DNA from: a virus
Reading direction: 5' to 3' (one strand)
IMG/VR virus record: IMGVR_UViG_3300050821_013777
Span: 1 to 64,000 of that record
DNA: 64,000 nt
The translations under genes were made by a program, and so were the position numbers. Positions 457 to 56,341 of the stretch are shown piece after piece (position 1 is the first letter of the stretch; the number at the start of each line of letters is the position of its first letter). The notes below the pieces were generated by a model. That model was given only the letters and a program-made list of their open reading frames with translations, did no database searches and had not been told where the DNA came from.

Positions 457-773
457 TGGCCGCGAAGCGCAAGGTCCGGCGCGGACTCGCCACGAACATC
501 CTGTGCGTGCTCAAGCACGAGGGGAAGGCGAACGACAGCTACTTCGCGCGCCGCTTCGGGTACTCGGTAGGGACCGTCGAGCGCGTGCTCCGGTCGCTGG
601 AGAACCAAGGGCTCGCGCAGATGGCGATGGCCGACCGCGGAAACTACTTCCTCACCCAGAAGGGTTGGGGGAAGGTCCTCCGCAGCAAGGCGTGCCCAGC
701 AGGGAAAAACTTCGCAGTGACGAGAGCGCACTCCGATTCGCGCTACGTGCCGATCGGCGGCGCGCGGCACTAG
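456..773 (+). CDS. Winged helix-turn-helix protein
   Basis: ILCVLK..FARRFGYSVGTVERVLRSLENQGL..YFLTQKG is a typical wHTH pattern; start at TGATG 456. Confidence 0.75.
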   Translation: MAAKRKVRRGLATNILCVLKHEGKANDSYFARRFGYSVGTVERVLRSLENQGLAQMAMADRGNYFLTQKGWGKVLRSKACPAGKNFAVTRAHSDSRYVPIGGARH

Positions 774-1072
774 TCGCTCTTCGACTCGACGAGCTTCTGC
801 GCGGCCCACCACGCGCGCATGTCTTCACGGTGATGGACGATCGCGTTCTGAATCAGATCGGCGTCTTCTTCGGCGGCACACTGACCGCACGGTTTGCCGT
901 GGTTGTCGCCGTCTTCGCGGCACGGAATCGGATTGGGCCGATGGGCTGGGCAGCGGAGATTTGGTCCTGGCAAGAACCACCAACCGATCGCTTGAAGGCC
1001 AGCGGCGCCGCCGACGCCGACCGCGGTGCTGGTGCAGCCGGGATGTTCGCACTCCCACTTGTTGAGCGCCAC
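770..1072 (-). CDS. Cys-rich Zn-binding protein with AxxxLxxS C-terminus
   Basis: CEHPGC, CPAH, CGQC; ends AAQKLVESKSD. Confidence 0.65.
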   Translation of the reverse strand: MALNKWECEHPGCTSTAVGVGGAAGLQAIGWWFLPGPNLRCPAHRPNPIPCREDGDNHGKPCGQCAAEEDADLIQNAIVHHREDMRAWWAAQKLVESKSD

Positions 1073-1076
1073 GAGG

Positions 1077-1424
1077 TCAGCCCTTCGACTCGGTGAGCTT
1101 CTTCTCAGCGAGCAGCGCGCGAGCGGTTTGGATCAGCGCGGGCAGGATCGACCTCGCGAGCTGGCCAAACTCAGGCCGCGCTCTGGCTCCAGTGTAGTCA
1201 CTCAATACCTCTCGACACCGCCCGCACACCTCTGTGTTGGTGAAGCCGAGGATTTGCTGTTGTGAGCTGGTGCTGGCTGCGATAGTCGCGCTCAGAAAGG
1301 CGCCGCTCATGTGGAAGTTGCACACGTCGCGGTCGCATAGCGAGCAGACAGCCTTGAACGAGCCCTCGCACAGCTTCCCGGCTGAGTCGGGGATGTCGCA
1401 CAGCCTGACCGTTCGCTCCCCCAT
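1077..1424 (-). CDS. Cys-rich Zn-finger protein with AxxxLxxS C-terminus
   Basis: CSLCDRDVCNFH and CGRC; ends AEKKLTESKG; resembles 55952-56341. Confidence 0.65.
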   Translation of the reverse strand: MGERTVRLCDIPDSAGKLCEGSFKAVCSLCDRDVCNFHMSGAFLSATIAASTSSQQQILGFTNTEVCGRCREVLSDYTGARARPEFGQLARSILPALIQTARALLAEKKLTESKG

Positions 1425-1993
1425 TAGTTGACCGTGAGCTGCTTGATCGCCGAGCGCAGTAGCACCTCGTCGGACGCAGTAGGATCCATCGCTGACACGA
1501 TCGGATCATACTCGTACGCTTTAAAACCGAGGTTCTTCAGCGCTCCTCGAACCGAGTCGAGCTTGCGACGCTGGGTGGGTGATAGCACAGGCTCCTGAGC
1601 CGCCGCGTTCTGAAGAGCTGTGAAGGCCGGCACCGCGACGCCCTGCGCAGCCTGCGCGTCGGCGTGCCGCTTGATCGCCGCATCCACGATCCGCTGCAGG
1701 TCCGCTGTGCGGTCCCCCTCGTGAACGATCCGGGCGACTCGTGCCTCGCGGCCGTTGAAGATCCAGCGAAAGAATCCTGCCACCGCTCCGTGCGGAACGA
1801 CGAGCAGGATCCCGGTGACCAGCATCGTGAGCGCGAGCAGCGTGGAGCCGGTCTGCCCGAGCAGCTTGCCCGAGATGCGCGCGACCAGCTCTCCGATGAG
1901 GCCGCACGTGCCGGCGAAGGCGTAGAAGAACGTGCCGAGCAGCAACAGGACGCCGATGAGGAGACGCTTGCGGGCGGGGTGCATGGTGGTCAT
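1424..1993 (-). CDS. Membrane protein with C-terminal RuvA domain III-like helical bundle
   Basis: 2-3 N-terminal TM segments; C-terminus SVRGALKNLGFKAYEYDPIV..DPTASDEVLLRSAIKQL matches the RuvA_C pattern. Confidence 0.65.
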   Translation of the reverse strand: MTTMHPARKRLLIGVLLLLGTFFYAFAGTCGLIGELVARISGKLLGQTGSTLLALTMLVTGILLVVPHGAVAGFFRWIFNGREARVARIVHEGDRTADLQRIVDAAIKRHADAQAAQGVAVPAFTALQNAAAQEPVLSPTQRRKLDSVRGALKNLGFKAYEYDPIVSAMDPTASDEVLLRSAIKQLTVN

Positions 1994-2040
1994 GGGGTTT
2001 GTCCTTTCTTAGAATCGGTAGGTAGCAGACGGCGTGCCAA

Positions 2041-3045
2041 CTAGCGCTTCTTCATGATCTTCGCTGTCGCTTGGGTGAGCAGCTCCTTGTCGCGCTCCTC
2101 TTGCGCCTTCACCGCGTCCATCGCGGCCCTGTCGATGTGCCTCGTAAAGGCGGCGCGAATCAGCCGCGTGAGCACATTCGGTGGAAGCGCGTCTACTTCC
2201 CACGAGCTGTTGCCGAACTTGGCGATGTAGTTAGCGGCGCGCGGATCGGCGATCTTGGCAGGGTTGGGCGGTGGGTTGTACTGCTTGACTTGGGCGATCG
2301 TGAGGCCAACTTTCTCGACCTGTAGCCACAGGACGCCGAACTCTTTGAGCCGAACGGAGATGTCGCGCACCATGTCCTCGCCGCTGGGGTCGTGGTCCCC
2401 GAGATACAGGACGACCGGTGTGCGGAGCGCCTGGCTGATGTTCTCGTGCATGTACTGTTTAGCTTCGCGCCGTTCCTCGTCGTCCTCATCGAGGCCGTTC
2501 GTGCGTTCGAGGCGCTCGTAGATGTCGTCATAGAGCGTTCGATCGGTCACGCACGCCGTCTTGATTCGCTCCGCCGACTCCTTCATGGCGCTCGCGCTGC
2601 TGTAGCCCTTGTTCACCATCAGCGTGGCGTGGAACTCGTACGCGATCGGTTCGAGCACGCCCGCGAGGGCTTGCTTCTCGACCCACAGCTCGACGTACTT
2701 GGGCTGGCCCTTCCATCGTGGCAGCCGGTACGAACGGAGCGCGGATGACACACGGTCCTGGAGGTCATCCCACTCGTTCGGTGTGTTGGGTTCGCGCCCG
2801 CGGTCCTCGATCGCGTCCCAATCGATCATGCCGGCGTAGCGTGCATCGGTAAGAAGCGCTGTCAACTTTTTGTACTCCGTGTCCTTGTTGGGGATGAGGT
2901 CGCGGCTCACGAATTGATAGTAGAGCTGGCGTGCGGTGAGCCGGAGCCCCTGCCCTTGGTACTCCTGAATGATCGAGTCCATCTGCTCGATCTTTTCGCG
3001 CGCGTCTGCGCGGAAGTTTATCGAACGGAATTTCTCCTTGGCCAT
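2041..3045 (-). CDS. wHTH + TOPRIM protein (topoisomerase VI-A/JetD-like nuclease fold)
   Basis: LTARQLYYQFV N-terminal helix, VELWVEKQAL, YLGDHDPSGEDM (DxD), WEVDAL; start MAKEKF at 3045. Confidence 0.8.
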   Translation of the reverse strand: MAKEKFRSINFRADAREKIEQMDSIIQEYQGQGLRLTARQLYYQFVSRDLIPNKDTEYKKLTALLTDARYAGMIDWDAIEDRGREPNTPNEWDDLQDRVSSALRSYRLPRWKGQPKYVELWVEKQALAGVLEPIAYEFHATLMVNKGYSSASAMKESAERIKTACVTDRTLYDDIYERLERTNGLDEDDEERREAKQYMHENISQALRTPVVLYLGDHDPSGEDMVRDISVRLKEFGVLWLQVEKVGLTIAQVKQYNPPPNPAKIADPRAANYIAKFGNSSWEVDALPPNVLTRLIRAAFTRHIDRAAMDAVKAQEERDKELLTQATAKIMKKR

Positions 3046-3286
3046 TAGGACTGCCCGCCCCGCATCATGGCTACCAGGAACGGGTCCGGCTCGCTGACGT
3101 GCGTGGGCTCCTCGGGCGACAAGGTGACCAGGGTGGGCTCCTCCGCGGCGGCGAAGGCGGCCTCCTCGACCAGGATGGCGTCGGGCCCCCGCCGGCTGCA
3201 GCTGATGCAGAAGCGGCAACCGTTCGCGTTGTCGAAGTTGACCAGCATGACGTCGGAGCCGCAGTTCGCGCACTCGCCGAGGCGGG

Positions 3287-3538
3287 TCATGACGAAGCGC
3301 TCCCGGCGTGCTTGGCGCGGAAGGCGTCGGCTTCGGAGCCGAGAGTCGACCGGCACCAAGTGCTGCCCTCGTCGGCGTACTCGCGATCAGCTTCGAGACG
3401 CGGACGGACCTCCACAGTGAACCCGGCCGGGTGCAATCGCACTACGCGCGCCAGATACACCCCACCAGCCACCAGCTCGCCAATGTCGTGTGTGTTGTGA
3501 ACTAGGATCGCAGTGTCGACTGAGATGTGACTCGCCAT
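3287..3538 (-). CDS. DEGxTW-family small protein
   Basis: GGAGG SD; contains YADEGSTWCR. Confidence 0.65.
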   Translation of the reverse strand: MASHISVDTAILVHNTHDIGELVAGGVYLARVVRLHPAGFTVEVRPRLEADREYADEGSTWCRSTLGSEADAFRAKHAGSASS

Positions 3539-3553
3539 GGTCCCTACCTCCAC

Positions 3554-3568
3554 GCCAGGAACATAGCA
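3554..3568 (-). promoter_or_regulatory. TGCTATGTTCCTGGC extended -10/operator motif
   Basis: Identical 15-mer also within 11006-11022 and 11205-11221; lies just upstream of the SD of 3287-3538. Confidence 0.6.
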
Positions 3569-3821: not shown

Positions 3822-4163
3822 TTAGCTTGAGGCCAACTTCTTGGCTGCCCAGCGCCAAGAGAAAAGCTCTCGGGCCGCAGGAGTGAGCTGCACGAGCCAG
3901 GGGCCCGCGAGGCGCTGCCCCAACCGCGGAGGGTCGATCCTGGTGCCCGCTTCTTGCTCGTCCTCCGTCACGAGCCCAGCGTAGAACGCCACGATGTGCG
4001 AGCAGCCCCCGCCGTCGTACTCGCCGGTCCCTGGATCGTCTTCGACGCAGCCCCCGCAGCTGCAGCGAACAATGCGACTCGACTCGTACGTAAGCTCGTG
4101 CCACATCTCGTTGTTTTTGAGCTGCGCGGCCTGGATGCGGATGCGTGCGAGCAGCTTCTTCAT
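3822..4163 (-). CDS. SWIM-type zinc-finger protein (paralog 1)
   Basis: RCSC...CSHI; ends LTPAARELFSWRWAAKKLASS. Confidence 0.7.
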   Translation of the reverse strand: MKKLLARIRIQAAQLKNNEMWHELTYESSRIVRCSCGGCVEDDPGTGEYDGGGCSHIVAFYAGLVTEDEQEAGTRIDPPRLGQRLAGPWLVQLTPAARELFSWRWAAKKLASS

Positions 4164-4468
4164 GGTGCGCTCAGCGCGAGCTTCCTGACCGCGTAGCGCC
4201 ACTCGAATTCTTCGCGACCTGCCTGAGTGAAGTTGACCGTTGCGACGCCGACGAAGCCCGGCTCAAACAACCCACGTACGTGATTGCACGCCTCATCGCG
4301 TGATGGCATCTCGATGTTGCTGGACACGTAGGCTATCGGCCCTCCGGCCATCGGCCCCCACCGACATGTACAGCGCAGCCGATCCCGCTCAACGCTCATA
4401 TGCACGTGTGATACCCGGTTGGTGTAGCCGGGATCTTCGATGACAGTCGCCAGGAGCAACCACTTCAT
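4160..4468 (-). CDS. SWIM-type zinc-finger protein (paralog 2)
   Basis: RCTC...CNHV; ends FTQAGREEFEWRYAVRKLALSAP. Confidence 0.7.
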   Translation of the reverse strand: MKWLLLATVIEDPGYTNRVSHVHMSVERDRLRCTCRWGPMAGGPIAYVSSNIEMPSRDEACNHVRGLFEPGFVGVATVNFTQAGREEFEWRYAVRKLALSAP

Positions 4469-4927: not shown

Positions 4928-5167
4928 TCATCGTACCTCCGACAGAATCAGCCTGCGCGCGGCTACCAGCGCGTCTCGCGACTCTTCATCGCCTCGGCAC
5001 CAGACGTAACCTTCATCACTGAGCAGGGCGAGACCCGAGATCGCGCGCGTGTCACCGCGCCACAGAAATGCGGTTGGTCCAGTACGCTCTACAGTTCCTG
5101 GGACGACTGCAGGCTCATGAAAGGCAGGCGCGGCGAAGATCTTGTCGCCTTCGACGACGGCGCTCAT
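4928..5167 (-). CDS. DEGxTW-family small protein
   Basis: SDEGYVWCRG..DALVAARRLILS. Confidence 0.7.
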   Translation of the reverse strand: MSAVVEGDKIFAAPAFHEPAVVPGTVERTGPTAFLWRGDTRAISGLALLSDEGYVWCRGDEESRDALVAARRLILSEVR

Positions 5168-5589
5168 CCTCCAGACTCCGCGAGCCGCCGAGCGGCTTCA
5201 GTCGCAAACACGTCTGGCGGGACCGGTCCAGTAGGTGGAATGGGATTGGTGGGAACGGACAAATCTACAAGCCCACGCAGTCGATGCACGATCGCGTGTC
5301 GGCTGTCGGTTGGCACTCCTGTGTACAGTGTGGGGTTGTAGTCCCACAGCAACGAGTCAGGTCGAAAAGCACGATAATAGCCGTGTACGTTGATGCCCAT
5401 GTACTCGGGCGGCAGTGTGCTTGCATCAACATAGTTTTCTGCCTGTGCCATCGTGTCGAACACGGCAATGACGGTGTATTCCTCAGCGCGCTGATAGACG
5501 CCGTTGGCTACGATGAGCCAGCACTCAGGGAGGACATCGATCATGGACCTGATCGTCTGTGCTTGCGTGAGGTACTCATGAACGCTCAT
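5164..5589 (-). CDS. Hypothetical protein with AxxxLxxS C-terminus
   Basis: ATGA-coupled to both neighbours; ends AARRLAESGG. Confidence 0.65.
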   Translation of the reverse strand: MSVHEYLTQAQTIRSMIDVLPECWLIVANGVYQRAEEYTVIAVFDTMAQAENYVDASTLPPEYMGINVHGYYRAFRPDSLLWDYNPTLYTGVPTDSRHAIVHRLRGLVDLSVPTNPIPPTGPVPPDVFATEAARRLAESGG

Positions 5590-5999
5590 TGGGAAGACTC
5601 CTGCAGTAGCCGCTGCGAAACGAGATGGCCGAAGAGCTGCTGGCCGATGGGAGTGAGATCTGCGAGGTAGATGGAATCGGGTCCGTCCGGTGCGCGCACG
5701 AGCTGAGAGTTCTGCCTGGTCGTGAGGCGCCCGGTGATGAGCGCGGCGAGATGCCAACATGGTGAGGGGAGTGTCTCGCCGATCGGCCAGCAGATGTACT
5801 CGCCGGAGCCGCAGCTGCAACGAAGCGTCTGTCGCTTGTACTTCCGCGACGGCGGGTAGAGCGCGATGTCGAGCGGACGCAGATCGACGATATTTTCGTA
5901 GCGTATGTCCTTGTCGGATGGAACCCAGTACGTGGCCACGAGCGCGTAGCGAGAAACCCGCCCCGACTTCGTTACGTACGCTCCCCGGCGACGACTCAT
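5586..5999 (-). CDS. SWIM-type zinc-finger protein (paralog 3)
   Basis: RCSC...PCWHL; LTPIGQQLF; ends SQRLLQESSQ. Confidence 0.7.
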   Translation of the reverse strand: MSRRRGAYVTKSGRVSRYALVATYWVPSDKDIRYENIVDLRPLDIALYPPSRKYKRQTLRCSCGSGEYICWPIGETLPSPCWHLAALITGRLTTRQNSQLVRAPDGPDSIYLADLTPIGQQLFGHLVSQRLLQESSQ

Positions 6000-6289
6000 T
6001 GAGATGACGCATGCAGGAGATAGGCGGCGATCAGGGTGCTGCGCGTGAGGAGATCTTCATTCATCTCCCACTTGATGCCACGCTCCTGCGCGAAACAGAC
6101 TGTCCTGTAGCCTCCGTCACCGATGTCGTCGAGCTGCACAGCGAAGGCGATCCAGCCGTAGCTGTTGCCGTTGCCGTTGCTCACCTCGCTGCCGAGGACA
6201 GTTACGGACCCTGTGCGCGTCTCGACCGGCGAGTCGGTGGGCAGATAGATGGTCGACACGCGCGACCCGACGACGACAGGGAGAGCCAT
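5996..6289 (-). CDS. Divergent DEGxTW-family protein
   Basis: VGSRVST N-terminus, QERGIKW, TLIAAYLLHAS. Confidence 0.6.
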   Translation of the reverse strand: MALPVVVGSRVSTIYLPTDSPVETRTGSVTVLGSEVSNGNGNSYGWIAFAVQLDDIGDGGYRTVCFAQERGIKWEMNEDLLTRSTLIAAYLLHASSQ

Positions 6290-6303
6290 GGGAGGTCCAG
6301 TCC

Positions 6304-6726: not shown

Positions 6727-6750
6727 GTTCGTCTCCTCTGTTTGGGCGCT

Positions 6751-7278
6751 CTACACTGACTCCTGCAGCATCTTCGCGGCGACCACGCTCCTGCGCAGCA
6801 GTGGGTCCTTTTTCGCGGCGCGGAGCTTGGTCTGGTCGAGACCGATTGCGCCTGCCCACTCCGGAACGAACAGCCGTTCTTCGTCATGCTTGCTGATGAT
6901 GGATGGCTGCTGCACCCAGCCCTTGCCATTGACGTACTTCGCTGGTTGCACAGTCTCTGTCTGGACCGTCCAGGTAATGCGCTTGATCCTGACGCCCGCG
7001 GCTGCGAATCGCGCTGCCTGTACGACGTCCACTTCTGACCAGCCGGTTCGTTCGAGCAGCTTGACGCGCTCCTCGGGCGTGCGGCGCTTGATCTTACCGC
7101 GCCGTATGATCGCCGGGGCCTTCTCATCGAGCAAGGCGCGCACGCGACGCAGCTCTTTGAGCACGCGCTGACGGGCGTGGCGCCGAGCGATAGGGCGGGC
7201 GGCTGTGCCACCGACTGTGCGAAGGCTGCGCGCGAGTTGCTTGAGGGCGTCGTCGAACTGGGTGTCGTTGGTTTTCAT
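6751..7278 (-). CDS. Hypothetical protein, FVPxWA family
   Basis: LFVPEWA..LRAAKKDPLLRRSVVAAKMLQES. Confidence 0.65.
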   Translation of the reverse strand: MKTNDTQFDDALKQLARSLRTVGGTAARPIARRHARQRVLKELRRVRALLDEKAPAIIRRGKIKRRTPEERVKLLERTGWSEVDVVQAARFAAAGVRIKRITWTVQTETVQPAKYVNGKGWVQQPSIISKHDEERLFVPEWAGAIGLDQTKLRAAKKDPLLRRSVVAAKMLQESV

Positions 7279-7932: not shown

Positions 7933-8418
7933 TCACACCTCACCTCGCAGCAGCAGCTCGGCGGTGAGGCTGTCCTGCAGCTCAGAGTCGAGCGCGACCT
8001 CCTGTAGCCGTCCCAGCCTTCGCGCCTCGACTGCCCACGCCGGCACGAACGCGCCGAGCGCGGACTTGTCGACAGAAACACCCGCTGCGAGCATCTCGTC
8101 GAGCGCTATTGACCTGTCGATATCTTCAGGATGGGCGAAGTGCGTGTAGTGCATGCGGTGAAGCTCCATCAGCCTCCTCATGAACGGCTCGGCAGCGAGC
8201 ATGACAGGCACACCCGTGGCCTTGAGACCCCCTTTCTCGATCAGTGTTTCCGCTGCCCTGATGGCAGGGAGGGCGAACGAGAGCTGGTGCTTGATGGACT
8301 GTATCCCAGACCCACCGTGCTCGCGGCTGATGTACGCCATCGCGAACAGCGCGAGGCGCACGTGCCCCCGGTCGAGGGCCTTGTTGATCAGTTCGGGAGC
8401 GCGCGCCGACCGGTTCAC
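7933..8418 (-). CDS. Hypothetical protein, FVPxWA family
   Basis: GTGA overlap with the vWA gene; AFVPAWA..LQEVALDSELQDSLTAELLL. Confidence 0.6.
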   Translation of the reverse strand: MNRSARAPELINKALDRGHVRLALFAMAYISREHGGSGIQSIKHQLSFALPAIRAAETLIEKGGLKATGVPVMLAAEPFMRRLMELHRMHYTHFAHPEDIDRSIALDEMLAAGVSVDKSALGAFVPAWAVEARRLGRLQEVALDSELQDSLTAELLLRGEV

Positions 8419-9773
8419 GCGTCGTCCTCGACCCAGACCACGTCGCCGTAAGGCATCGTGAAGTTCTTGTTGCCTCCAACAATCGCCCAGATGGTATGAA
8501 ACCCCGGCTCGTCCGGCTGGTCGATGTAGCCGTCCGTCACGACCACGCACACCGTGATCTTGTTCTTCAGCTGCGAGACCGCTTCGAGTGCGGGCGCCAT
8601 GGCCGTGCCGCCGCCACCCTTCATCATCGAGCGCGCCTGCCTGATGTTGGCGATCGGCTTGATGCCATGTACCTCGGCGTCGCAGATGCACAGCGTGATG
8701 TTCGAGCCCACGGCCTTGAGCACACCTTGTACCTCTGACAACGCCTCCGCGAGCTGCTCGTCGCCCATGCTGCCGCTCGTATCGATGACACACGCGACCT
8801 CGGGCTGTGGCGCGTGCAGCGCGGGGACGACCGGGCGGCCCACGCCGAAGCCGACACCGGCCTGGCGCCGCGACACCTTCCCCCACGTGAGATCGGCCGA
8901 TCCACTCCGGTAGGCGACAGCGCCGCGGATGACCCGTGCGAGCTTCGTGCGCCACGGGATCTTCGCCGGCTTGAGCATCTCGTCGGCCCAGCGCTCCAGG
9001 CTCGACGGGACGGTTCCGCGCCTCTTCGAGGCATAGTCCTTCACTGCCTCGGCGGTCGCGCGCCGCATGCGCTCCAGCTCGGCCTCAGAGCGCCCCTCGC
9101 CAGGCTTCCCGGTCGGGTCGGGCTCGCCAGGGATCGGGTGCTGCGCACAGCCGCCGCAGTGGCCCCCGGTGACGCCCGCCTGGGGCTGGCCCTTGCCCGG
9201 CGCGCCCTGCCCCTGCCCCGAGCCTTGCCCGCCCTGCGGCTGCTTCGGCTGCTTCTTCTCCCACTCTTCGAGGAGCTTGTAGTACACCTCAGCAGTCAGC
9301 CCCTCGGGGAACTTGAACTGCTCGGGGAAGAGTCCGTCCTTCGGCAGCGCGGCGAACTTGCGCACGTCGGTGTTGATCGCGAGATCCCCTGCCCAGTTCC
9401 ACCGCCGCGCCTTCGAGAACATCTCGTTCGACGGCTCGGGCTTGATGCCGAGAGCTGTGGCGCGGTCGGCGTGCTTGAGCGCGAGGTGCATTGCCTCATG
9501 CACAAGCACGCCGGCCAGCTCGTCGCTCGTGATGCTCGCGACGAACTTCGGGCTCCACCACAAGACCCCGTCCCGGCTGACAGCGAGTGTGGCGGGCATG
9601 CCGAGCGCCTCCATGATCACGTGCTGCTCGGGCGAGATCTCGCGGCGGATGAGCCCGCGCAGGAGCACCCCGAAGTACGGAGCGATCCCGATCGAGTTGC
9701 CGTCCTTCCGCTTGCCGGGATCGACAACGCGAATCATGCCTGCTGCCAACTTGTCTCGGGGACTGAGTGCCAT
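8415..9773 (-). CDS. HExxH metallopeptidase-like + vWA domain protein (DUF2201-type)
   Basis: VLVHEAMHL, GDLAIN, AEVYYKLL, MIDAS motif IDTSGSM, GGGGTAM, VTDGY. Confidence 0.9.
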   Translation of the reverse strand: MALSPRDKLAAGMIRVVDPGKRKDGNSIGIAPYFGVLLRGLIRREISPEQHVIMEALGMPATLAVSRDGVLWWSPKFVASITSDELAGVLVHEAMHLALKHADRATALGIKPEPSNEMFSKARRWNWAGDLAINTDVRKFAALPKDGLFPEQFKFPEGLTAEVYYKLLEEWEKKQPKQPQGGQGSGQGQGAPGKGQPQAGVTGGHCGGCAQHPIPGEPDPTGKPGEGRSEAELERMRRATAEAVKDYASKRRGTVPSSLERWADEMLKPAKIPWRTKLARVIRGAVAYRSGSADLTWGKVSRRQAGVGFGVGRPVVPALHAPQPEVACVIDTSGSMGDEQLAEALSEVQGVLKAVGSNITLCICDAEVHGIKPIANIRQARSMMKGGGGTAMAPALEAVSQLKNKITVCVVVTDGYIDQPDEPGFHTIWAIVGGNKNFTMPYGDVVWVEDDA

Positions 9774-9808: not shown

Positions 9809-10972
9809 CTAGAACGTCTCGTTGAGGAGCGGCAGCATCCGGGAGAGCGCCGGCTTGCCGCTCGTGGCGAACTCCTTGGCCCCGATGACGGGCTCCAGCA
9901 CCCGCGCGATGCAGAGGGCGCGCGCCGCAGGGACAGCGATGTCCGCGGTGGTCTTGCTGACCTGGTCGATGAGGCGCCAGCAGTTGGCAGCGCGGGGCCC
10001 GCGGTTGGCGGCCTTCTCGGGGATGACGAGCGACGCGCACGCACTCAAAACCGCGAGCGAGCGATCCGGGCGGCGTTCGTCGTGCGTGAACTTCACCTTG
10101 CCGTCGAGCAGCTCCGCGGGATCGGGCAGGTCGACGTTGTTCTGCCAGACGCGGAACTCGGCCACCCAGCTCTGCCCCACGAAGCCGCCGATCAGCTCAT
10201 CGGTGTCGATCTCGTTGAGGCCGTGCACACGAGCCGACGTGAGCGCAGTGGCGGCATACTCGACCGAGCGCCGCGAGGGCCATGCCATCGACGCCTGCGC
10301 GCTGGCCTTCTCGGGACGCTTGTGGAGCAGCTCGGGGCGGCGGAAGATGAAGCCGCCGATGAGGCCGCGGGAGTGCGCCTCCGCGGCGGGCCACGCTGCC
10401 ATCACGCGAGCCTCCTCGGCTTCGGGATTGGGCGCGCTGGTGGACGTCGTGTCGGAGCCGAAGCCGCCAAGCAGGCCCTCGACCCAGGACGACGGGTCGA
10501 GCCCTTCGAAGTTGTAGTGCCCGAAGCGGTTGGCGAGCGCCGGAGGGAGGTCCCAGCCACCGGCCGCGTCTCCCGTGCTGTTGGCGGCGCCAATGACCCG
10601 AACGCGCTTGTTGAAGACGAACGAGCCGAGCGTGCGGAGCTGGACGAGGCCGAGCAGCGCGGCCTGCAGGGCGGGCGGGGCCGTGTTGATCTCGTCCACG
10701 AAGAGGATCCCGCCGTTCTCCAGCTGGACTGCCCAATCGGGCGGAGGGTACCGCAGGAAACCGTCAGCGTGCGGTACGGGCACAACTCCGAACTGACCCT
10801 CGCCGCGCTCGCCTGGTGAGATGCGATAGGCGAAGAGGCCAGACGACTTCGACACCGCGCGGACGTTGGACGTCTTGCCGGTGCCGGGCTCTCCATGAAG
10901 GAGACCGGGCAGGCCCCAGTGCCCTTCAGGACTCGGGCAGAAGAAGAGAGCGTGCAAGATTTTCTGGTTCAT
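9809..10972 (-). CDS. MoxR-like AAA+ ATPase
   Basis: Walker A GEPGTGKT, Walker B ILFVDEIN, AAN, PALANRF, PSRRS; adjacent to its vWA partner. Confidence 0.9.
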   Translation of the reverse strand: MNQKILHALFFCPSPEGHWGLPGLLHGEPGTGKTSNVRAVSKSSGLFAYRISPGERGEGQFGVVPVPHADGFLRYPPPDWAVQLENGGILFVDEINTAPPALQAALLGLVQLRTLGSFVFNKRVRVIGAANSTGDAAGGWDLPPALANRFGHYNFEGLDPSSWVEGLLGGFGSDTTSTSAPNPEAEEARVMAAWPAAEAHSRGLIGGFIFRRPELLHKRPEKASAQASMAWPSRRSVEYAATALTSARVHGLNEIDTDELIGGFVGQSWVAEFRVWQNNVDLPDPAELLDGKVKFTHDERRPDRSLAVLSACASLVIPEKAANRGPRAANCWRLIDQVSKTTADIAVPAARALCIARVLEPVIGAKEFATSGKPALSRMLPLLNETF

Positions 10973-30554: not shown

Positions 30555-30836
30555 TCAGCGAGCCCGCCCGAGCAGCGCCCTGATCTCACGTACGCCAGTC
30601 GTGCCCTCGAAGCGATGCATCTTGCCTGTCGAGTCCATCACAATCGTCGTCGGCGTGGCGCGCACCTTCATCTTGTCGCCGAACGCTGTCTCGTGCCCAC
30701 CCTTGCTGACGTCATAGATGCCGAGCGGATGGGGGAAGCCGTGCGCAGCCTGCTGCAGCTTCGGCATGAAGTCGTGGCAGGCACCGCAGCCGTCTTGAAT
30801 GAACACGAACGCGGCGGGGCGCGGTCGAGGCGGCAT
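30555..30836 (-). CDS. Thioredoxin-like protein
   Basis: FVFIQDGCGACH (CxxC) and VRATPTTIV cis-Pro motif. Confidence 0.8.
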   Translation of the reverse strand: MPPRPRPAAFVFIQDGCGACHDFMPKLQQAAHGFPHPLGIYDVSKGGHETAFGDKMKVRATPTTIVMDSTGKMHRFEGTTGVREIRALLGRAR

Positions 30837-31099
30837 CAGGCGGCGCTCCGTGCGAGCTGAGACGCAGCGAAGAGCACATCTCGCGATTCCTTGCTGACGT
30901 CGCGCGACCACGTGAGCCCCTCGTCTTCGTAGTCCCAGACCGGAGGTATGTTGAAACCCTTCGTGGCGATCGAGAAGCAGCGGCGCCCGCCCAGACACGA
31001 CGGGTTCAGCACCTCGACACCGACGACCCCGAACTGCATCGCCACGGCGACAAGCTGTCCCTGTTCGAGCAGGACTGCAGCCGGAGCCTTGTTGGCCAT
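30836..31099 (-). CDS. DEGxTW-family small protein
   Basis: EDEGLTWSRD..VLFAASQLARS. Confidence 0.7.
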   Translation of the reverse strand: MANKAPAAVLLEQGQLVAVAMQFGVVGVEVLNPSCLGGRRCFSIATKGFNIPPVWDYEDEGLTWSRDVSKESRDVLFAASQLARSAA

Positions 31100-42510: not shown

Positions 42511-45500
42511 TCAGTGGTTCAGGACTACGCGGGCTGCGAAAGTGTTCTGGCCAATCACGCCAGCAGGTCCCGTCGGCCCGGTTGGACCGATCGGGCACGG
42601 CTGCCCTGACTCCCAGAGCTTCTTGGCTGCGAGCAGCACCTGCACGTCCTCAGAATCTTCTGCGTGTGCGCCACGGACCCACGAAATGCCCTCATCGTGA
42701 TCGTAGGCAGGTACGATCGGCGTCGCGGCGCGGACCTGCGGCTCGTCTGGCATCCAGTAGAACCCGATCGCTTCTTTGTAGTCGGGAGGCGCTGCTAGTA
42801 GTCCCTCGGTGACAACGCTGCCGATCACTATCTGCCCGCTGACGAGCCCAGTGATCTTGCTGTCGCGCGCCGGTCTCACTCGGCGACCTGAGCCACTTGC
42901 ACCACAGCGTTGCCGCCTTCGAGCCTGTAGTCGAACGAGACGACCACCTTGTCGTCCTCGCTGGCCACGTCGCAGTTGCTGTCCTTCATGGCCTTGAGCG
43001 CGCGGTCGCGGAGCCTGCCGATAACCGCGAATGCCTTTTCTGTGTCGGCGCGATCGGCCTCGGCGATCGGGATGGCCACGTCGTCGGCGATCAGGTGCAC
43101 GTCGTCGTGCACGCGGGTGATGGTTGCGTCGGAGGCTCGCTTCGTGGCAGGCCGGAACACCATGTTCGGGGATTATGCCAGGCTCCTGGCTGAGGCGTCA
43201 AGACGGTAGGCGGCGAGGAGAGCATCGGGGTTGTCCCAGCCCTTGGCCCAGACCGTGCCCTGCGCGGCGTAAGACAAGACCCACCAGTCGGTGCCGCCGA
43301 CCACGACAATAGGCGATCCATCTGACGTGTGCCCCTCGACGATCCCTTTGAGGACGCGCCAAGAATTCCAGTCGTGCCCACCGAATACCAACAGCACGCG
43401 CTCCCCTGCCTCCACCGATGCCGGATGCAGCGCCACCTACGCCGACCACTCCAGCATGAACGCCGCGAGTAACGACTCCCGTCCCGCGGCGCTCGTGTCT
43501 CGGCTCCAAGTCACGCCCTCATCGCGCACGCGCAGCGCCGCAGCTGCAGGATCGTGCTGGCCTGCTCGACAGTTGAACCAGTCGCCGTCGACGTCGTCTG
43601 GGCGACTGAAGCAGGCCACTATGTCTGCTTCTAGGATTCGGGGATCGCGATCAAAAAATCGGCTTCCTTCATTCACGATCACGATTCTGGTGCCTGGATG
43701 CAGGTCCATCAACGACGCCGAAAGCTCGAAGCGTTCTTCGCAGGGACGGGCCGAAATCGCGGTGGCGCTGATGGACGTCGCAGCTGGTTGCGCACGGTCA
43801 TGTCGTGCCAGTCCGCGACGGCGTCGCTCAATCCCTTCATCGCGTCGGTAAGCGGATCTCGATCCTCTCGCGCGAGCATGTTCGCCGCCTTCAACGACTC
43901 GACTTCGCTACTCTCCTCGCGGTGATCGCCCCGAATCCAGGTGATACCCTCATCAGCCACAAGTAGCGTCCCTGATTTGTGCACGTCGTAGAAATGGTGC
44001 CAGTCGAAGCGTCCAGACCGCTGCAGCTGAGTCGTCGGGGCAGCTGCGCGCACAACCTTACCGTTGTTGCACACTATGATGATCGTGAAGCCGATCATCG
44101 ATCGCGCTCTCCTGCAGAGAACTCGGCGTCCCACTGGTCGAGGTTCGCGACCCATGCTTCGCGTGACATCTGCCCACGCATGTACAGACCATGTGCTTCT
44201 TCCAGACCTATCGCCTTTGGCCCGCGCAGCTTCCACGCAGCGAGCATCGCTTGCGCGTCCTGCGAATCGTCACCGTGCCAGCCATTGATCCAGTCGATGC
44301 CCTCTGCTCCCTCATCACGCGCGGCGCCATGCCTAATGCCACGGAGAATCACCCCGTTCTTGATGCGCGTGACGAGACGCTGTGCGGAGTCACTCATTGT
44401 GCTGCCTGGGGCGGCTCCTCTTCGTCGGTGTCGATCTCGCCGGCCTGCATCTTTGCCTCGGCTCGATCAAATCCGGTCATGAGCTGTTCGACGCACGATC
44501 GGCATAGTCCAGCGAACGCAGGTATACCGTTGACGATGACCTCCCTGAGTTCGAGGCGCGCGAGCAGCTCCGCCGGCTGATCGCACATGGAGCAGATGCA
44601 ATCGAACTCGTCACTCGGGAGGAGAAAACGCAACTTCATGTCGCTCGACCTCACGGTTCGCTGTTGGTGAGCTTCTGTACAGCGTCGACTACGACGAAGT
44701 CGGACTCGGTACGCTCGCCGCGCACCCACGTCGCACCCTCGTCGGCGAGCTGGAAGTAGTGGTTGAAGAGTGCACCGCCCGGAAGGCGCAACTGCACGAA
44801 CATCCGTGTGCCGTCGACGGTGTGCACCTTGCCGATGCCGAGCACGCCGCCGCGTGACCGCGCTGTGATTATGTCACCCTGTTTGATCATGCTGCGCTCC
44901 TTGCCAGTTTTGCCGCTGCGAGCAACGCTCGCGCTTTGTCATCCCACGCCTGCAGCCACCCGCGTACTCACGTCGCACCCTCGTTGGCATCATCCTCGAA
45001 GCCGCTGCGCAAATCAGCGTCGGTCCACATGAACGAACCAACAAACTGATGCCCACATACCTCGCCGTGGTACAGCCGGCCTGTGTGCTCGCCAACGACG
45101 GTCACCTTCGTGCCGTTCGCAGGGCTGTTCACGCGCTTGCCCATCAGCGCACCAGCCCCTGTGGGATGAGCTTGTCGTCCCAATAGATGTCGTCGTCTAA
45201 CCAGTGGTAGGAATCGTCGTACCAATCTTCATCGTGCAGGAATAACATCGACGACTCCCTGTTTCCTGCGAGCGCAAAGGCGGCCAACATCGTCGTCACG
45301 TCTTCGCTGTCGATGTCTGGCCAACCGCGAATCCAATAGATGCCCTCGTCACGTCCGTCACAGTCGAGCACGAACGAGCTGATCCCCGCGGTTATCTCAG
45401 CGCCTACGTAGAGTACGGCCTGTTGTTGGCAGAAGCGCGCTCGCATCACGAAGGTCGAGCCGTCTGACAGATACACAGCAGCGGTAATCTTGTCGCCAGC

Positions 45501-46813
45501 GTGGAGGCTCATTCTGCACTCCGTCGAAGCCGCCAGCTCGCGAGCAACGCGTCGACTTCAGGTGTGCCGCGCTCGTGCCAACCACGAATCCACGTCGCGC
45601 CCTCGTCGGCGAGCAGCGCTGTTTCAGCGTAGCCCCACGAGGTGCCCCAGCGGAACCTTCCACGGTTGTCGATGTCGACGGCGCCGCTGACGTCGACACG
45701 ATGTACGAAGCCGCCATTACTGACCGCTGTGATGTACGGCCAGCCTGTATACTTGTCGAACAGCAGATGAGGCAGCGATGGCTGCACTTCCTGATCGCGC
45801 GTGCTCATCGTCGGCGTTCCGCTGCGCGCTTCAGGACCTCGGCCCATGGACGCAGCTCAAAGTCGTGTTCTCCTTCGTGCCCTTCAGGCAGTGGGCACGA
45901 AACGTAGTCGTAAGCTGGCCCGCGCGCGTTGCAGTCGCCGTCGATCTGCCGATACTCGTTCACGGCTACAAGCACGTGACCTGTGTGGGATTTGTAGAAG
46001 TTTGGATCGACGTGGCCGATCTCGCCCGGTACCGAGATGGAGATCTCAGTCCAGCTCTTTGTCATCGACGCGGCGACATCAGCGATCGTAGCGAGCCCGT
46101 CGCGGAACTTGATTAGGTCGCGGCATGTGCCGTCGCCGCGATTGAGGTGCAGCCCAGACTCGGCATCGCAGTCGAGGCAACGCACGTCCCAGTAGGTGCT
46201 CACGCTGCGCTCCTGGCGAGCAGTCCAGCAGCACGGAGCGCAAGAGCTTCAGGTTCGGTTGGTCTGTACCATCCTCGAATCCAGGTCACGCCTTCGTCGG
46301 CAAAGTAGCGCGAGCAAGCCCAGCCGCCTTCGCCCACTCCGCCGTTTTGGGCGCTTTCAATCGCCGCGTCGAATCCCTCGCGGAGAAGATCCCGACCACT
46401 GACGCGCGCCAGATATATACAGCTGTCTTCCGCGTCGAAGAGCGTAATCCCTATGCCTAGTACCAGCGCGCTCACGGCTCGAAGCTCCCAACGAGGGCCC
46501 GTGTCGCAACGAGCGCCTCGGTGTCATCGACCCAGCCTGGCACCCACGACACGTCTTTGTCGGCGTAGCGGTGCTCAGTCACAAGCCGGGTGATCGTGTG
46601 CTCGGCCTTGAACGACACAGAGCCGAGCGCCACGATGTGCGCGTGCCCGGCGCGGTAGGTCCCGCGAAGAGCGTCATCCGCGAGGAGTGCTGTGACCCGC
46701 GAGACGACGATAGTGACCTGCTGGCCGAGGAAGAAGCCCGGCGGCGGGTTGACGATCTGGGTGCGGGCTTGGGTGGTGGGGCGCCCGAGCCGGCCTGCTG
46801 GTCTGGTTATCAC
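42511..46813 (-). other. Tandem array of 11 DEGxTW-family paralogs: 42511-42879, 43173-43436, 43437-43712, 43709-44098, 44095-44397, 44651-44890, 44887-45144, 45144-45512, 45509-45808, 46200-46475, 46472-46813
   Basis: Each has a GxxI/V beta-rich N-region, a DEGxTWxRGW-like motif and an ALLAAxxL-like helix; three unrelated small genes are interspersed. Confidence 0.85.
44887..45144 (-). pseudogene. DEGxTW-family gene with in-frame TGA at the conserved Trp
   Basis: Reads NEGAT*VRGWLQAWDDKARALLAAAKLARSAA*; TGA at 44968-44970; the distal stop forms an ATGA overlap with the next gene. Confidence 0.8.
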
Positions 46814-48677: not shown

Positions 48678-48686
48678 GACCCCAAG

Positions 48687-54310: not shown

Positions 54311-54326
54311 CAAAGGAGACCCGCCC

Positions 54327-55112
54327 ATGACCACTGAACGCAAATCGCACCACCCGCTCGAAGGCGGCAGCCGCATCAGCGCCTACGCCTTTACCACGCC
54401 CGAGCTGACGCTCGTTCACGATCCGCACGATCCGCTCTACGACCATCGGATTGAGACGAGGAAGCTCACGCGCGAATTCCTCCTGTCGATCGCGATGCGC
54501 GGCGTGGAGACCCCCATCTCTGTCCGCCGCCGCGGAAGCGAGAACGTCGTCATCCGCGGCAAGCAGCGCACAAAGGGCGTTATCGTGGTCAACGCGCTCG
54601 GCCCCGGCATTCCCTATACCGGTCCGGTGAAGTCGATCCACGAGGCGATTCGCACGTACGGTGCGGATCAGGACTTCGTCAAGAAGGTCACGATGTGGGT
54701 GACCAAGCCGCTGCGCATTCGGGCTGTGCCAGCGAACGCGGGCGACGAGAAGGATGCTCGCATGTCGATGCGCGTGGAGAATTCCATGCGGTACGGCGAC
54801 GTCCGCGAGGAGACCATCCGCGCCGCGAAGGCAGAGCACGAGAAGTACGGCACGTCGGCGGAGGACATCGCTACGAGCGAAGGCGTTTCGATCGCCACAG
54901 TGAAGCGTTGGCTCGCAACGGATCTCGCGGCGCCGCGGGGCTCCAAGAAGCGCAGCAAAGGCGGCCGCCCGTCTGTCAAGCAGATCGGCAACCTCGTCGA
55001 GCGAGTACGCGCACACATGACGCCGCGCGAGGTCGCTCTCCTCGACTGGGTCACCACAGGCAAATCAGCAGAGAAGCACGTGGCCGAGCTATTCCTGGGG
55101 ACAGCTGCGTGA
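54327..55112 (+). CDS. ParB/Srx-like protein with HTH
   Basis: SIAMRGVETPISV..IRGKQR, ENSMR, AEDIA..GVSIATVKRWL. Confidence 0.75.
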   Translation: MTTERKSHHPLEGGSRISAYAFTTPELTLVHDPHDPLYDHRIETRKLTREFLLSIAMRGVETPISVRRRGSENVVIRGKQRTKGVIVVNALGPGIPYTGPVKSIHEAIRTYGADQDFVKKVTMWVTKPLRIRAVPANAGDEKDARMSMRVENSMRYGDVREETIRAAKAEHEKYGTSAEDIATSEGVSIATVKRWLATDLAAPRGSKKRSKGGRPSVKQIGNLVERVRAHMTPREVALLDWVTTGKSAEKHVAELFLGTAA

Positions 55113-55951
55113 GCGACTGGCCGTACTATACCGTGCCAGCGTTGACAGGGCTGCTGCTCGCTGCTGACGATATTCGGCTGCGGCTGCTCCGACGCGGCGA
55201 CAGGCGAGCAGCGCGCGCCGCGGAGCTGCTGGTTCGGAGCGGGGGAGCAGCAACTGCTGAGTGTTTGAACGGTAGCTGCCACGCGCTGCGATCTCCCGCT
55301 TGCTCGGACGGCCGCTGTAGACACCACTGCCGCACGAACTGCGAATGTCCGGGAAACCAATGAGACGTCGCCGACTAAAACAAGACCACTACGTGAACAT
55401 CCTCGACATCGAGAGTCGTCGTGTTCTGAAGCAGATCGGGCCGCTCGGCTCTCGTAAATTCGCCGGACGTACCGAAACTGGCATACTGCGAACGCTCGAC
55501 ACCAAGACGCAGTTCACAATAATCACTACGAAGAGGGAGCCGACTCTGTGACCGCGGCGGTATGCGCGGTGGTGTGCTTTCTCGCGCTGTGTTCAGTTGC
55601 GGTTGAGTGCGCCCGTCTGCGCAAGGCTCTTCGGCAAACAGAGCGCAAGCTCGCCGATCTCGAAACCGAGCGCGCCGAGCAGGCAGCGCGACTGCTTGCA
55701 CGTAGTGCCTCATGCGTCGCTGGTGTTGAGCTGCCAGACATAGCGGACCTGCGCTGGGTTCCGGAAAGTCAGACATTCGAAACTGGTGGCATACAAGCCA
55801 ATGAGATCGTGCTCAAGCTAGGAGACATCTTTGTAAAGATGGTCAACGGGCTTGTATATGTCGGCCCTGGACCGGCGCTGCCAGACAGCACTACCTATGG
55901 AAAAGCCGTAGTTACTTCCTACCGGAACCGTGTTGCTGCAAAGGCCAAGAC

Positions 55952-56341
55952 ATGAAAAAAGAGGTCACTGTCTGCGACGCCGAACACTGCCGCACGCTCT
56001 CGGATCGGGTCTGTCCCCTGTGCGAGAAGGACTTCTGCCGAGAGCACTTCAAGCCCATGCTGTTCGCTCGGCTCTGCGTACAGAAACCCGGCTTGCCGCA
56101 GCCAGGGCAGGCACCGTTCGCGCCAGGGCAGGAGAAGTTCGACACGCACAACGCGTTCGAGGAGCAGATCGGTATCTGCGAATGGTGCTACGGAGACTTG
56201 AATCTTGCCCAGTATGGTCCTGAGCCGAGGTCAGCGCGGAGAGATATTTTGCGGCCACTCATCAGGGGACTGAGGTCGCAGATGATCGATGCCTGCCGCG
56301 TCGCGCTCGCTACGTACAAGCTGGAAAGCAGCGGGAAGTGA
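55952..56341 (+). CDS. Cys-rich Zn-finger protein with AxxxLxxS C-terminus
   Basis: CPLCEKDFCREH, CEWC; ends ATYKLESSGK; resembles 1077-1424. Confidence 0.65.
   Translation: MKKEVTVCDAEHCRTLSDRVCPLCEKDFCREHFKPMLFARLCVQKPGLPQPGQAPFAPGQEKFDTHNAFEEQIGICEWCYGDLNLAQYGPEPRSARRDILRPLIRGLRSQMIDACRVALATYKLESSGK

What the first reader, a model, noticed from the sequence alone, without database searches (positions are those of the whole stretch)
770..56341. A shared C-terminal tag (A-x-x-x-L-x-x-S) on about 19 small proteins from unrelated families
Seen: AAQKLVES (770), AEKKLTES (1077), AAKKLASS (3822), AVRKLALS (4160), AARRLILS (4928), AARRLAES (5164), SQRLLQES (5586), AAYLLHAS (5996), AAKMLQES (6751), AASQLARS (30836), AAKKLWES (42511), AAYRLDAS (43173), AAFMLEWS (43437), AVQKLTNS (44651), AAAKLARS (44887), ASWRLRRS (45509), AAGLLARS (46200), ATRALVGS (46472), ATYKLESS (55952). 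All but 42511 end 0-5 residues after the Ser. The proteins belong to different families (Cys-rich Zn fingers, SWIM fingers, DEGxTW, FVPxWA, singletons) at four loci. Enzymes and structural genes do not show the tag. Inference: a modular system in which diverse cargo domains share one amphipathic docking helix for a common receptor. Candidates are the MoxR-AAA+/vWA pair upstream of the first cluster, a virion-loading or export route, or a host hub such as a protease or RNA polymerase. I do not recognise a described equivalent.
Basis: partly seen in the sequence, partly recalled or inferred. Interest (0 to 1): 0.9.

Follow-up and report, generated by a model that had tools for sequence, protein, structure and literature searches.

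The report
Shared C-terminal helix on small viral proteins
About one in ten genes of a large uncultured bacterial virus ends in the same short helix motif even though the proteins fall into several unrelated families, which points to a common but still unknown binding or sorting function.

Summary
All 19 listed peptides are at the stated places. The strict motif A-x3-L-x2-S lies within 6 residues of the C-terminus in 19 of 216 called genes of the 121.5-kb virus record. About 1.25 are expected from the interior rate (P 1.6e-16).

- **Protein-level signal.** Ser uses TCN in 9 and AGY in 9 of 18 sites. Anchors change synonymously in a relative. The enrichment survives masking Ser.
- **"Unrelated families" is overstated.** 14 of 22 carriers belong to one paralog family, DEGxTWxRG, which has 19 copies. 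The other 8 fall into at least 4 further groups. Profile-profile comparison aligns only the tail, in one register.
- **Conservation.** Orthologs in related metagenomic viruses keep the tail, as conserved as the rest or more so.
- **Docking.** The docking-helix reading is plausible but unproven. AlphaFold2 puts the SWIM-family helix inside a compact fold.
- **MoxR/VWA.** The pair is common in phages, and the one checked lacked the tag.

No described equivalent was found in five literature searches. The scan has not noted this motif on other DNA.

The parts
770..1072 (-). Cys-rich small protein (100 aa) ending in the AAQKLVES tail plus 3 residues. It is the last gene of its operon.
   Evidence: six close orthologs keep the tail; four distant homologs P0062-P0065 lack it or deviate
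1077..1424 (-). Cys-rich protein (115 aa), paralog of 55952-56341. Tail AEKKLTES plus 2 residues.
   Evidence: blastp E 0.001 to 55952-56341; tail conservation 0.93 against 0.74 for the rest in 5 orthologs
3822..4163 (-). SWIM-type CxC...CxH protein (113 aa). Tail AAKKLASS at the very end.
   Evidence: AlphaFold2 helix 95-112, pLDDT 80-94
4160..4468 (-). SWIM-type paralog (102 aa). Tail AVRKLALS plus 2 residues.
4928..5167 (-). DEGxTWxRG family member (79 aa). Tail AARRLILS plus 3 residues.
5164..5589 (-). Singleton (141 aa) with weak coding score. A Pro-rich stretch precedes the tail AARRLAES plus 2 residues.
   Evidence: (GC3 0.62, score 8.7); no ortholog seen in L001
5586..5999 (-). SWIM-type paralog (137 aa). 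Tail SQRLLQES plus 2 residues (Ser in place of the first Ala).
   Evidence: (SWIM 14.7 bits, below the 19.6 cut-off)
5996..6289 (-). DEGxTWxRG family member (97 aa). Tail AAYLLHAS plus 2 residues.
6751..7278 (-). FVPxWA family protein (175 aa). Tail AAKMLQES plus 1 residue. The terminal helix is conserved in the 40 aligned family members, and Ser occurs mainly in the closest relatives.
30836..31099 (-). DEGxTWxRG family member (87 aa). Tail AASQLARS plus 2 residues.
42511..42879 (-). DEGxTWxRG family member. Internal tail AAKKLWES followed by 31 residues with Gly-x-y repeats. The start codon is uncertain (42828 or 42879).
   Evidence: orthologs P0015, P0019; PSSM 30.4 bits
43173..43436 (-). 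DEGxTWxRG family member (87 aa). Tail AAYRLDAS plus 5 residues.
43437..43712 (-). DEGxTWxRG family member. Tail AAFMLEWS plus 1 residue. The start is uncertain.
44651..44890 (-). DEGxTWxRG family member (79 aa). Tail AVQKLTNS plus 2 residues.
44887..45144 (-). DEGxTWxRG family member interrupted by an in-frame TGA (44968-44970) at the position of the family's conserved Trp. Tail AAAKLARS plus 2 residues lies after the stop.
   Evidence: match 44893-45114 with 1 TGA inside
45509..45808 (-). DEGxTWxRG family member (99 aa). Tail ASWRLRRS plus 2 residues.
46200..46475 (-). DEGxTWxRG family member (91 aa). Tail AAGLLARS plus 2 residues.
46472..46813 (-). DEGxTWxRG family member (113 aa). Tail ATRALVGS plus 3 residues.
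   Evidence: (nine orthologs keep it)
55952..56341 (+). Cys-rich protein (129 aa), paralog of 1077-1424. Tail ATYKLESS plus 2 residues. It is followed by a GC-rich stretch, not checked for pairing, and no coupled gene.
43709..44098 (-). DEGxTWxRG paralog with the helix internal and Glu in place of the Ser. 51 residues follow.
44095..44397 (-). DEGxTWxRG paralog with the helix internal and Pro in place of the Ser. 40 residues follow.
45144..45512 (-). DEGxTWxRG paralog with the helix internal and Asn in place of the Ser.

Best explanation
The motif is the end of a C-terminal amphipathic alpha-helix with the pattern two hydrophobic residues, Ala, Ala/Val/Thr, x, Lys/Arg, Leu, x, x, Ser, then usually 0-5 residues. 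Ala, Leu and Ser fall on one stripe of the helix. The helix is kept by purifying selection on the protein in at least five sequence-unrelated groups of small, non-structural proteins of this virus and its uncultured relatives.

The most economical reading is a shared interaction module. Different N-terminal bodies (SWIM and other Cys-rich fingers, a beta-rich domain, an FVPxWA domain) present the same helical surface to one common partner, viral or host. The proteins would then be addressed or recruited in the same way.

**Shown here**
- The motif is real and strongly enriched.
- It is selected at the protein level.
- It is the only similarity between the families.
- It is conserved in relatives.
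- It is absent from distant homologs of one family.

**Inferred**
- That the Ala/Leu/Ser stripe is exposed.
- That it binds a partner.
- The identity of that partner.
For: **Enrichment.** 19 of 216 genes against 1.25 expected. Without the big paralog family, 9 of 198 against 1.1 expected (P 2.6e-6). Counting one hit per group (5 groups) gives P about 0.006.

**Protein-level selection.**
- Ser is coded 9 times by TCN and 9 times by AGY in 18 sites, and Leu by four different codons.
- Window against relative L001: Ala and Leu anchor codons change synonymously in three of the four tails compared, and the Ser codon in at least one.

**Tail-only similarity.** hhalign of the SWIM, Cys-rich and DEGxTWxRG profiles aligns 15-25 columns, all of them the tail, in the same register (P 0.042, 0.009, 0.007).

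**Conservation.**
- In 21 SWIM-family sequences the invariant columns are the four zinc ligands plus F, L and S of the tail.
- In 21 DEGxTWxRG sequences the invariant columns are W, A, L and S.
- The tail is as conserved as the rest or more so in six of six ortholog groups (0.74-1.00 against 0.72-0.84; one group nearly tied at 0.74 against 0.72).

**Separability.**
- Four distant homologs of the 770 family lack the tail or deviate from it.
- Three of five paralogs whose helix is followed by a further C-terminal part have lost the Ser.
- The segment between the DEGxTWxRG core and the helix is polar and varies in length.
- A Pro-rich stretch precedes the helix in 5164-5589.

**Independence from coupling.** The tail is also on genes with no coupled downstream gene (770, 3822, 56341).
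Against: - The only confident model (SWIM family, mean pLDDT 82, pTM 0.75) has the helix 95-112 at pLDDT 80-94, directly after a strand. This looks like part of a compact fold rather than a floppy tag.
- 14 of 22 carriers are one family, where the helix is a core element even when internal.
- The FVPxWA family has the terminal helix in all 40 aligned members, and only 10 of 102 representatives pass a looser tail pattern that includes the Ser.
- No receptor is identified.
- The MoxR/VWA pair is not specific to tag-bearing viruses.
- The DEGxTWxRG model is poor (pLDDT 57), so nothing can be said about packing there.
- Gene calls are my own crude ones.
Confidence: 0.42

Rival explanations
1. The helix is an integral capping helix of each small domain. 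The carriers are very diverged descendants of one or two ancestral strand-plus-C-terminal-helix modules, some with zinc-binding inserts. The shared residues reflect common ancestry and intramolecular packing, not a common receptor.
For: - AlphaFold2 of the SWIM family places the helix confidently in a compact model.
- Both modelled families have five or six strands followed by one C-terminal helix.
- 14 of 22 carriers are one family.
- The FVPxWA family keeps the helix in all 40 aligned members.
- Many other small genes here also end in Ala/Leu-rich helices without the Ser.
Against: - No similarity beyond the tail by blastp or hhalign.
- The Cys-rich and FVPxWA groups have, by eye, helix-rich rather than strand-rich C-terminal halves.
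- It is hard to see why the same Ala, Leu and above all Ser stay fixed, with no Thr, Ala or Gly at that position in the two 21-sequence family alignments, if each helix packs on a different body.
- Distant homologs of the 770 family do without it.
Confidence: 0.3
2. The tail is a C-terminal processing, turnover or modification signal centred on the invariant Ser. It could be a degron that times the removal of early proteins, a trimming site, or a site of phosphorylation or glycosylation.
For: - The Ser is invariant in the two 21-sequence family alignments and usually sits 0-5 residues from the free end.
- The Ser tends to be lost when the helix is internal, in 3 of 5 cases.
- The next residue is usually small.
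- The record encodes several glycosyltransferases and a metallopeptidase/VWA protein with an AAA+ partner.
Against: - The last residues vary widely (D, G, S, P, R, Q, V, A, E, K).
- The residue before the Ser is not conserved, which does not fit a protease site.
- Some orthologs carry 9-10 extra residues after the Ser.
- The segment is predicted helical, unlike typical degrons.
- No kinase or dedicated enzyme was linked to it.
Confidence: 0.12
3. The motif is a nucleotide-level by-product of Shine-Dalgarno sequences and overlapping stop/start signals of translationally coupled genes.
For: In about 12 of 18 sites, by my own tally of the codons, the codon before Ser plus the Ser codon contain GGAG or GAG 6-9 nt before the next start. 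In the frame xGG-AGy, Ser or Arg is forced.
Against: - Half of the Ser codons are TCN.
- The Ser frequency in the last 7 residues of genes without A-x3-L is 5.8%, close to the background of 5.4%.
- The helix part is enriched with Ser masked.
- The tail is present on genes with no coupled downstream gene.
- The anchors are kept through synonymous changes in a relative.
Confidence: 0.02

Closest known systems
Encapsulation peptides of bacterial microcompartment cargo
   Same: A short terminal amphipathic helix shared by otherwise unrelated proteins. [quoted passage not shown]
   Different: No microcompartment shell gene was seen among the 40 proteins scanned with Pfam. The carriers are tiny zinc-finger and beta-rich proteins, not enzymes. 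The motif has an invariant Ser and a fixed sequence. In the SWIM family the helix appears packed. No binding partner is known.
Cargo-loading peptides of encapsulins and the capsid-targeting sequence of T4 internal proteins (both recalled, not from any call)
   Same: One short terminal tag directs diverse proteins to one proteinaceous container. In T4 the tagged proteins are small, fast-evolving and virus-encoded.
   Different: The T4 tag is N-terminal and is cleaved. The encapsulin tags are not this motif. Here nothing shows loading into a particle, and the tagged genes lie mostly outside the putative structural block.
Tethering tails of AAA+ adaptor proteins and ssrA-type C-terminal degrons (recalled)
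   Same: A short C-terminal element that couples varied proteins to one machine. An AAA+ ATPase and a metallopeptidase/VWA gene stand at the head of the first tagged cluster.
   Different: The C-terminal residues here are not conserved. The segment is helical. The AAA+/VWA pair is widespread in phages, and the one checked shows no tag.
Virus-encoded adaptor families with a common C-terminal docking box for a host hub, such as the poxvirus ankyrin/F-box-like proteins (recalled)
   Same: Expanded families of viral proteins with variable target-binding bodies and one conserved C-terminal helical box.
   Different: Those are eukaryotic viruses using the ubiquitin system. Here the hub is unknown and the host is a prokaryote that I did not identify.

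Membership tests
Terminal targeting / encapsulation peptide | Short (about 10-20 residue) amphipathic helix at a protein terminus | tested here: met
   Helices 83-98 and 95-112 in the two models. The motif lies within 0-5 residues of the end in 20 carriers.
Terminal targeting / encapsulation peptide | Shared by proteins with no other sequence similarity | tested here: met
   blastp and hhalign find only the tail in common between SWIM, Cys-rich and DEGxTWxRG profiles. However, 14 of 22 carriers are one family.
Terminal targeting / encapsulation peptide | Joined to the body by a poorly conserved flexible linker | tested here: inconclusive
   There is a variable-length polar segment in the DEGxTWxRG family and a Pro-rich stretch in 5164-5589. 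In the SWIM model the helix follows a strand directly at pLDDT 80-94.
Terminal targeting / encapsulation peptide | A cognate shell or receptor that binds the peptide | not testable with these tools
   No receptor is identified. Only one complex job was allowed, and it tested self-association.
ssrA-type / AAA+ protease C-terminal degron | Conserved last residues at the free carboxyl end | tested here: not met
   The last residues are D, G, S, P, R, Q, V, A, E, K. Only 3 of the 18 terminal tails in the window share one ending. Some orthologs have 9-10 extra residues.
One paralogous family / one common fold | Homology detectable outside the tail among all carriers | tested here: not met
   Met only for 14 of 22 carriers. 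Between groups, only the tail aligns. Fold-level homology could not be tested because the DEGxTWxRG model is poor.
Shine-Dalgarno / coupling artefact | Motif explained by GGAG in a fixed frame before the next start | tested here: not met
   (details are given under rival explanations).
SWIM zinc finger (PF04434), for 3822, 4160 and 5586 | CxC...CxH ligand pattern and a Pfam score above the gathering cut-off | tested here: inconclusive
   The ligands are invariant in 21 sequences. The Pfam score is 14.7 bits against a cut-off of 19.6 for 5586-5999, and there is no hit for the other two.

The most novel reading that the evidence does not exclude
This virus lineage uses a C-terminal address code. 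About 22 small proteins from at least five unrelated families carry one conserved helical tag (Ala-x3-Leu-x2-Ser) that plugs them into a single hub, either a viral machine or a host complex. A second set of tiny basic proteins carries a poly-Arg end. Dozens of fast-evolving effectors would then be sorted or recruited by two short terminal signals. For the helical tag this would be a prokaryotic-virus counterpart of the shared docking boxes of eukaryotic viral adaptor families, or of encapsulation peptides.
Probability: 0.17. Interest if true: 0.85.

Novelty: new variant of a known kind. Interest (0 to 1): 0.6.

Why it matters
If one short helix couples some twenty otherwise unrelated small proteins to a common partner, several things follow.

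- It gives a handle on a large block of viral "dark matter" genes. The partner could be fished with a single peptide, and the tagged set would define a functional class.
- The tag could be used to recognise such effectors in related viruses.
- It would show that prokaryotic viruses use modular docking signals in the way microcompartments, encapsulins and eukaryotic viruses do.

If instead the helix is only a structural cap, the finding still defines a new, strongly expanded small-protein superfamily in an unstudied lineage of large viruses.

Tried and rejected
**Readings rejected or left without support**
- Shine-Dalgarno or coupling artefact: rejected.
- MoxR/VWA as a dedicated receptor: no support. 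The pair matches common phage families. VWA homologs occur in 255 phage records. In Thermus phage phiFa 0 of 29 genes around the pair carry the motif. Only this one phage was checked.

**Structure**
- Self-association of the SWIM protein: complex prediction with two copies gave no verdict (score 0.02, mark 0.42). This is evidence neither for nor against binding.
- Fold assignment of the SWIM model: no match in PDB by Foldseek (best E 0.5), by VIA-align wide (best Z 4.0) or in BFVD (best E 0.28).
- Sequence search of PDB with three family profiles: nothing below E 0.1.

**Family libraries**
- Pfam on 20 tagged or neighbouring small proteins: nothing above cut-off.
- PHROGs on 10 tagged proteins: one weak hit.
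- ESM Atlas for 6751-7278 and 5164-5589: scores under 0.9, not informative.

**Relatives**
- The phage collection gave no DNA match and one weak protein match.
- Two viral-contig scans found no relative.
- The metagenome scan gave one locus, L001.
- A degenerate-pattern scan of genome contigs gave 61 loci. None encodes the FVPxWA family by hmmsearch, so they are chance matches.
I therefore could not read the 62-150-kb contigs of the relatives, run phylogenetic profiling for a receptor gene, or see the genomic context of the tail-less homologs.

**Literature**
Five searches found no description of this motif or of the DUF2201/MoxR pair in this role. Supplements were not consulted.

**Host**
I did not determine the host.

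Full report
**Setting.** The window is the first 64 kb of a single 121,543-bp virus record with 63.5% G+C. The collection classes it as linear and about 88% complete. It has no DNA match and only one weak protein match among 50,697 phage records. Two scans of viral contigs found no relative. Relatives exist only as metagenomic proteins from contigs of about 38-150 kb and as one fetched locus, L001, from a 150-kb contig.

**The observation.** Three details need noting.
- The 42511 copy is internal.
- The 5586 copy begins with Ser.
- '44887' is a 26-codon ORF in frame with 44968-45144, separated by a TGA at the position of the family's conserved Trp.

Three further carriers lie outside the window, at 112825-113025, 113022-113321 and 113318-113590. 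That makes 22 carriers, 20 terminal and 2 internal.

**Is it more than chance?**
- In all six frames of the window, 22 of 835 ORFs of at least 50 aa have A-x3-L-x2-S in the last 14 residues. The interior density is 53 in 78,568 positions.
- On my own codon-usage-based gene calls for the whole record (216 genes, crude), 19 genes carry the motif within 6 residues of the end, against 1.25 expected (P 1.6e-16). Two of these look like chance hits, and two true carriers are missed by the strict pattern or by my caller.
- A position-specific matrix built from 19 tails (26 bits) finds only eight further segments of at least 8 bits in all 217 proteins scanned (the 216 called plus 46200-46475). Four are internal helices of the same paralog family. 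One is the end of the 302-aa DUF6744 protein 12468-13376.

**Protein or nucleotide signal?**
- The Ser is coded 9 times by TCN and 9 times by AGY among 18 sites. Leu uses four codons, and Ala several different ones.
- Against L001, the Ala and Leu anchor codons change synonymously in three of the four tails compared, and the Ser codon in at least one.
- With Ser ignored, A-x3-L near the end is still enriched (34 against about 14, P 5.6e-6). So is the longer hydrophobic pattern (12 against 0.46, P 1.3e-13).
- 19 of 33 genes with A-x3-L near the end have Ser at L+3. Ser makes up 5.8% of the last seven residues of the other genes and 5.4% overall.
- The tail also ends genes with no coupled downstream start (770, 3822, 56341).

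The Shine-Dalgarno explanation is therefore rejected. In about 12 of 18 sites (my tally) the codons around the Ser do double as GGAG or GAG.

**Who carries it?** blastp and profile searches sort the carriers as follows.
- *DEGxTWxRG family.* This beta-rich family has 19 HMM matches in the record. It holds 14 of the 22 carriers.
- *SWIM-type proteins.* Three carriers: 3822, 4160 and 5586.
- *Cys-rich proteins.* A pair (1077 and 55952-56341), plus a further Cys-rich protein (770).
- *Singles.* 5164-5589 (weak coding score) and the FVPxWA protein 6751-7278.

None has a Pfam family above cut-off, and 10 tested against PHROGs gave one weak hit. Without that family, 9 of 198 genes still carry the motif against 1.1 expected (P 2.6e-6). 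Counting five independent groups gives P about 0.006. Profile-profile comparison of the three larger groups aligns only the tail, in one register (15-25 columns; P 0.042, 0.009, 0.007).

**Conservation in relatives.**
- In 21 SWIM-family sequences, the invariant columns are the four zinc ligands plus Phe, Leu and Ser of the tail. Three orthologs have 9-10 residues after the Ser.
- In 21 DEGxTWxRG sequences, the invariant columns are Trp, Ala, Leu and Ser.
- In the Cys-rich groups the tail is the best-kept stretch. One ortholog (P0053) lacks the Ser at that position. Four distant homologs of the 770 protein (P0062-P0065) have no tail or a deviant one.
- The 12 tail residues are as conserved as the rest or more so in six of six ortholog groups (0.74-1.00 against 0.72-0.84; one group nearly tied at 0.74 against 0.72).
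- L001, whose SWIM protein is 56% identical, has six tagged genes in the equivalent cluster.
- The FVPxWA protein belongs to a broad family of 102 representatives at 50% identity. In the 40 members I aligned the last helix with A-x3-L is kept throughout, and the protein ends a few residues later. Only 10 of 102 pass a looser tail pattern that includes the Ser, and several of these are among the closest relatives.

**Integral or tethered?** The evidence points both ways.

*For a separable module:*
- tail-only similarity between groups;
- tail-less distant homologs;
- a polar linker of variable length in the DEGxTWxRG family;
- a Pro-rich stretch before the helix in 5164-5589;
- of five paralogs whose helix is followed by more protein, three have replaced the Ser with Glu, Pro or Asn.

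*For an integral helix:*
- AlphaFold2 on the 21-sequence SWIM alignment gives mean pLDDT 82 and pTM 0.75. A strand at 89-93 is followed at once by helix 95-112 at pLDDT 80-94.
- The DEGxTWxRG model is poor (pLDDT 57). It shows six strands, a low-confidence core motif and helix 83-98.
- The helix is part of that family's core even when internal.

Coordinates of the models were not available to me, so I could not see which face is buried. By helical geometry (my own arithmetic, not a tool result) Ala, Leu and Ser, at positions 0, +4 and +7, lie within about 60 degrees on one stripe. No known fold matched the SWIM model.

**Candidate receptor.** At the head of the first cluster stand a MoxR-like AAA+ protein (9809-10972) and a DUF2201 metallopeptidase/VWA protein (8415-9773). 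They match common phage families (phrog_1297, phrog_1314). The VWA protein has homologs in 255 phage records from many hosts. In Thermus phage phiFa the pair lies among early and replication genes, and 0 of 29 neighbouring genes carry the motif. Only one phage was checked. So neighbourhood is the only argument for this pair, and it applies to 9 of 22 carriers.

**What I conclude.** The motif marks a conserved C-terminal helix that is selected at the protein level and shared by at least five groups of small proteins.
- The best reading (about 0.4) is a common interaction module for one unknown partner. A single external constraint explains why the same Ala, Leu and especially Ser stay fixed on different bodies.
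- The main rival (about 0.3) is an integral capping helix inherited from an ancestral module.
- A Ser-centred turnover or modification signal is possible (about 0.1).
- A nucleotide artefact is excluded.

Known systems that work in a similar way are the encapsulation peptides of microcompartments (PMC4594438, PMC12339742; listing and abstract starts only) and, from recall, encapsulin loading peptides, the T4 capsid-targeting sequence, adaptor tails of AAA+ proteases and the docking boxes of eukaryotic viral adaptor families. Membership in any of these is not shown. Five literature searches found no description of this motif. The scan's earlier notes mention it only on this same genome.

**Limits.**
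- The gene calls are my own.
- Only one complex prediction was possible, and it gave no verdict.
- The host is unknown.

Noticed in passing
window 44887-45144 (-), TGA at 44968-44970: A DEGxTWxRG paralog is interrupted by one in-frame TGA exactly where the family has its conserved Trp (TGG). The tail-bearing 26 codons follow in frame. It could be a fresh nonsense mutation, a sequencing error or leaky read-through.
   Followed up: partly
whole record; e.g. record 83454-88014 (outside the window); L001 14272-16577: The last residue is Arg in 66 of 216 called genes. A run of tiny basic proteins ends in poly-Arg, also in the relative L001.
   Followed up: partly
window 12468-13376 (+): A 302-aa DUF6744 protein ends, beyond its Pfam match (17-288), in a tail-like segment (A-x3-L-x2-S, PSSM 10.8 bits) followed by 9 residues. 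It is a possible larger carrier of the motif.
   Followed up: no
window 7933-8418 (-): This 161-aa protein carries the same FVPxWA box as 6751-7278. It ends in a similar helix with Glu where the Ser would be. It sits directly after the VWA gene.
   Followed up: no
window 1424-1993 (-): A membrane-anchored 189-aa protein whose C-terminal 40 residues match RuvA domain III (PF07499, E 4.6e-6). It ends in A-x3-L-x2-N, a near-tail. An ortholog is present in L001 (12795-13391).
   Followed up: no
window 42511-42879 (-) and orthologs P0015, P0019: After the internal tail these proteins continue with Gly-x-y (collagen-like) repeats of different lengths.
   Followed up: no
window 2041-3045 (-): A 334-aa protein matches phrog_6247, annotated DNA topoisomerase, at E 5.8e-89. 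It has no Pfam hit. It lies inside the first tagged operon.
   Followed up: no
window 17086-19197, 20033-20899, 23507-24814, 59034-60146: Several glycosyltransferase domains and a DegT-type sugar aminotransferase are present. This suggests virus-encoded glycan synthesis.
   Followed up: no
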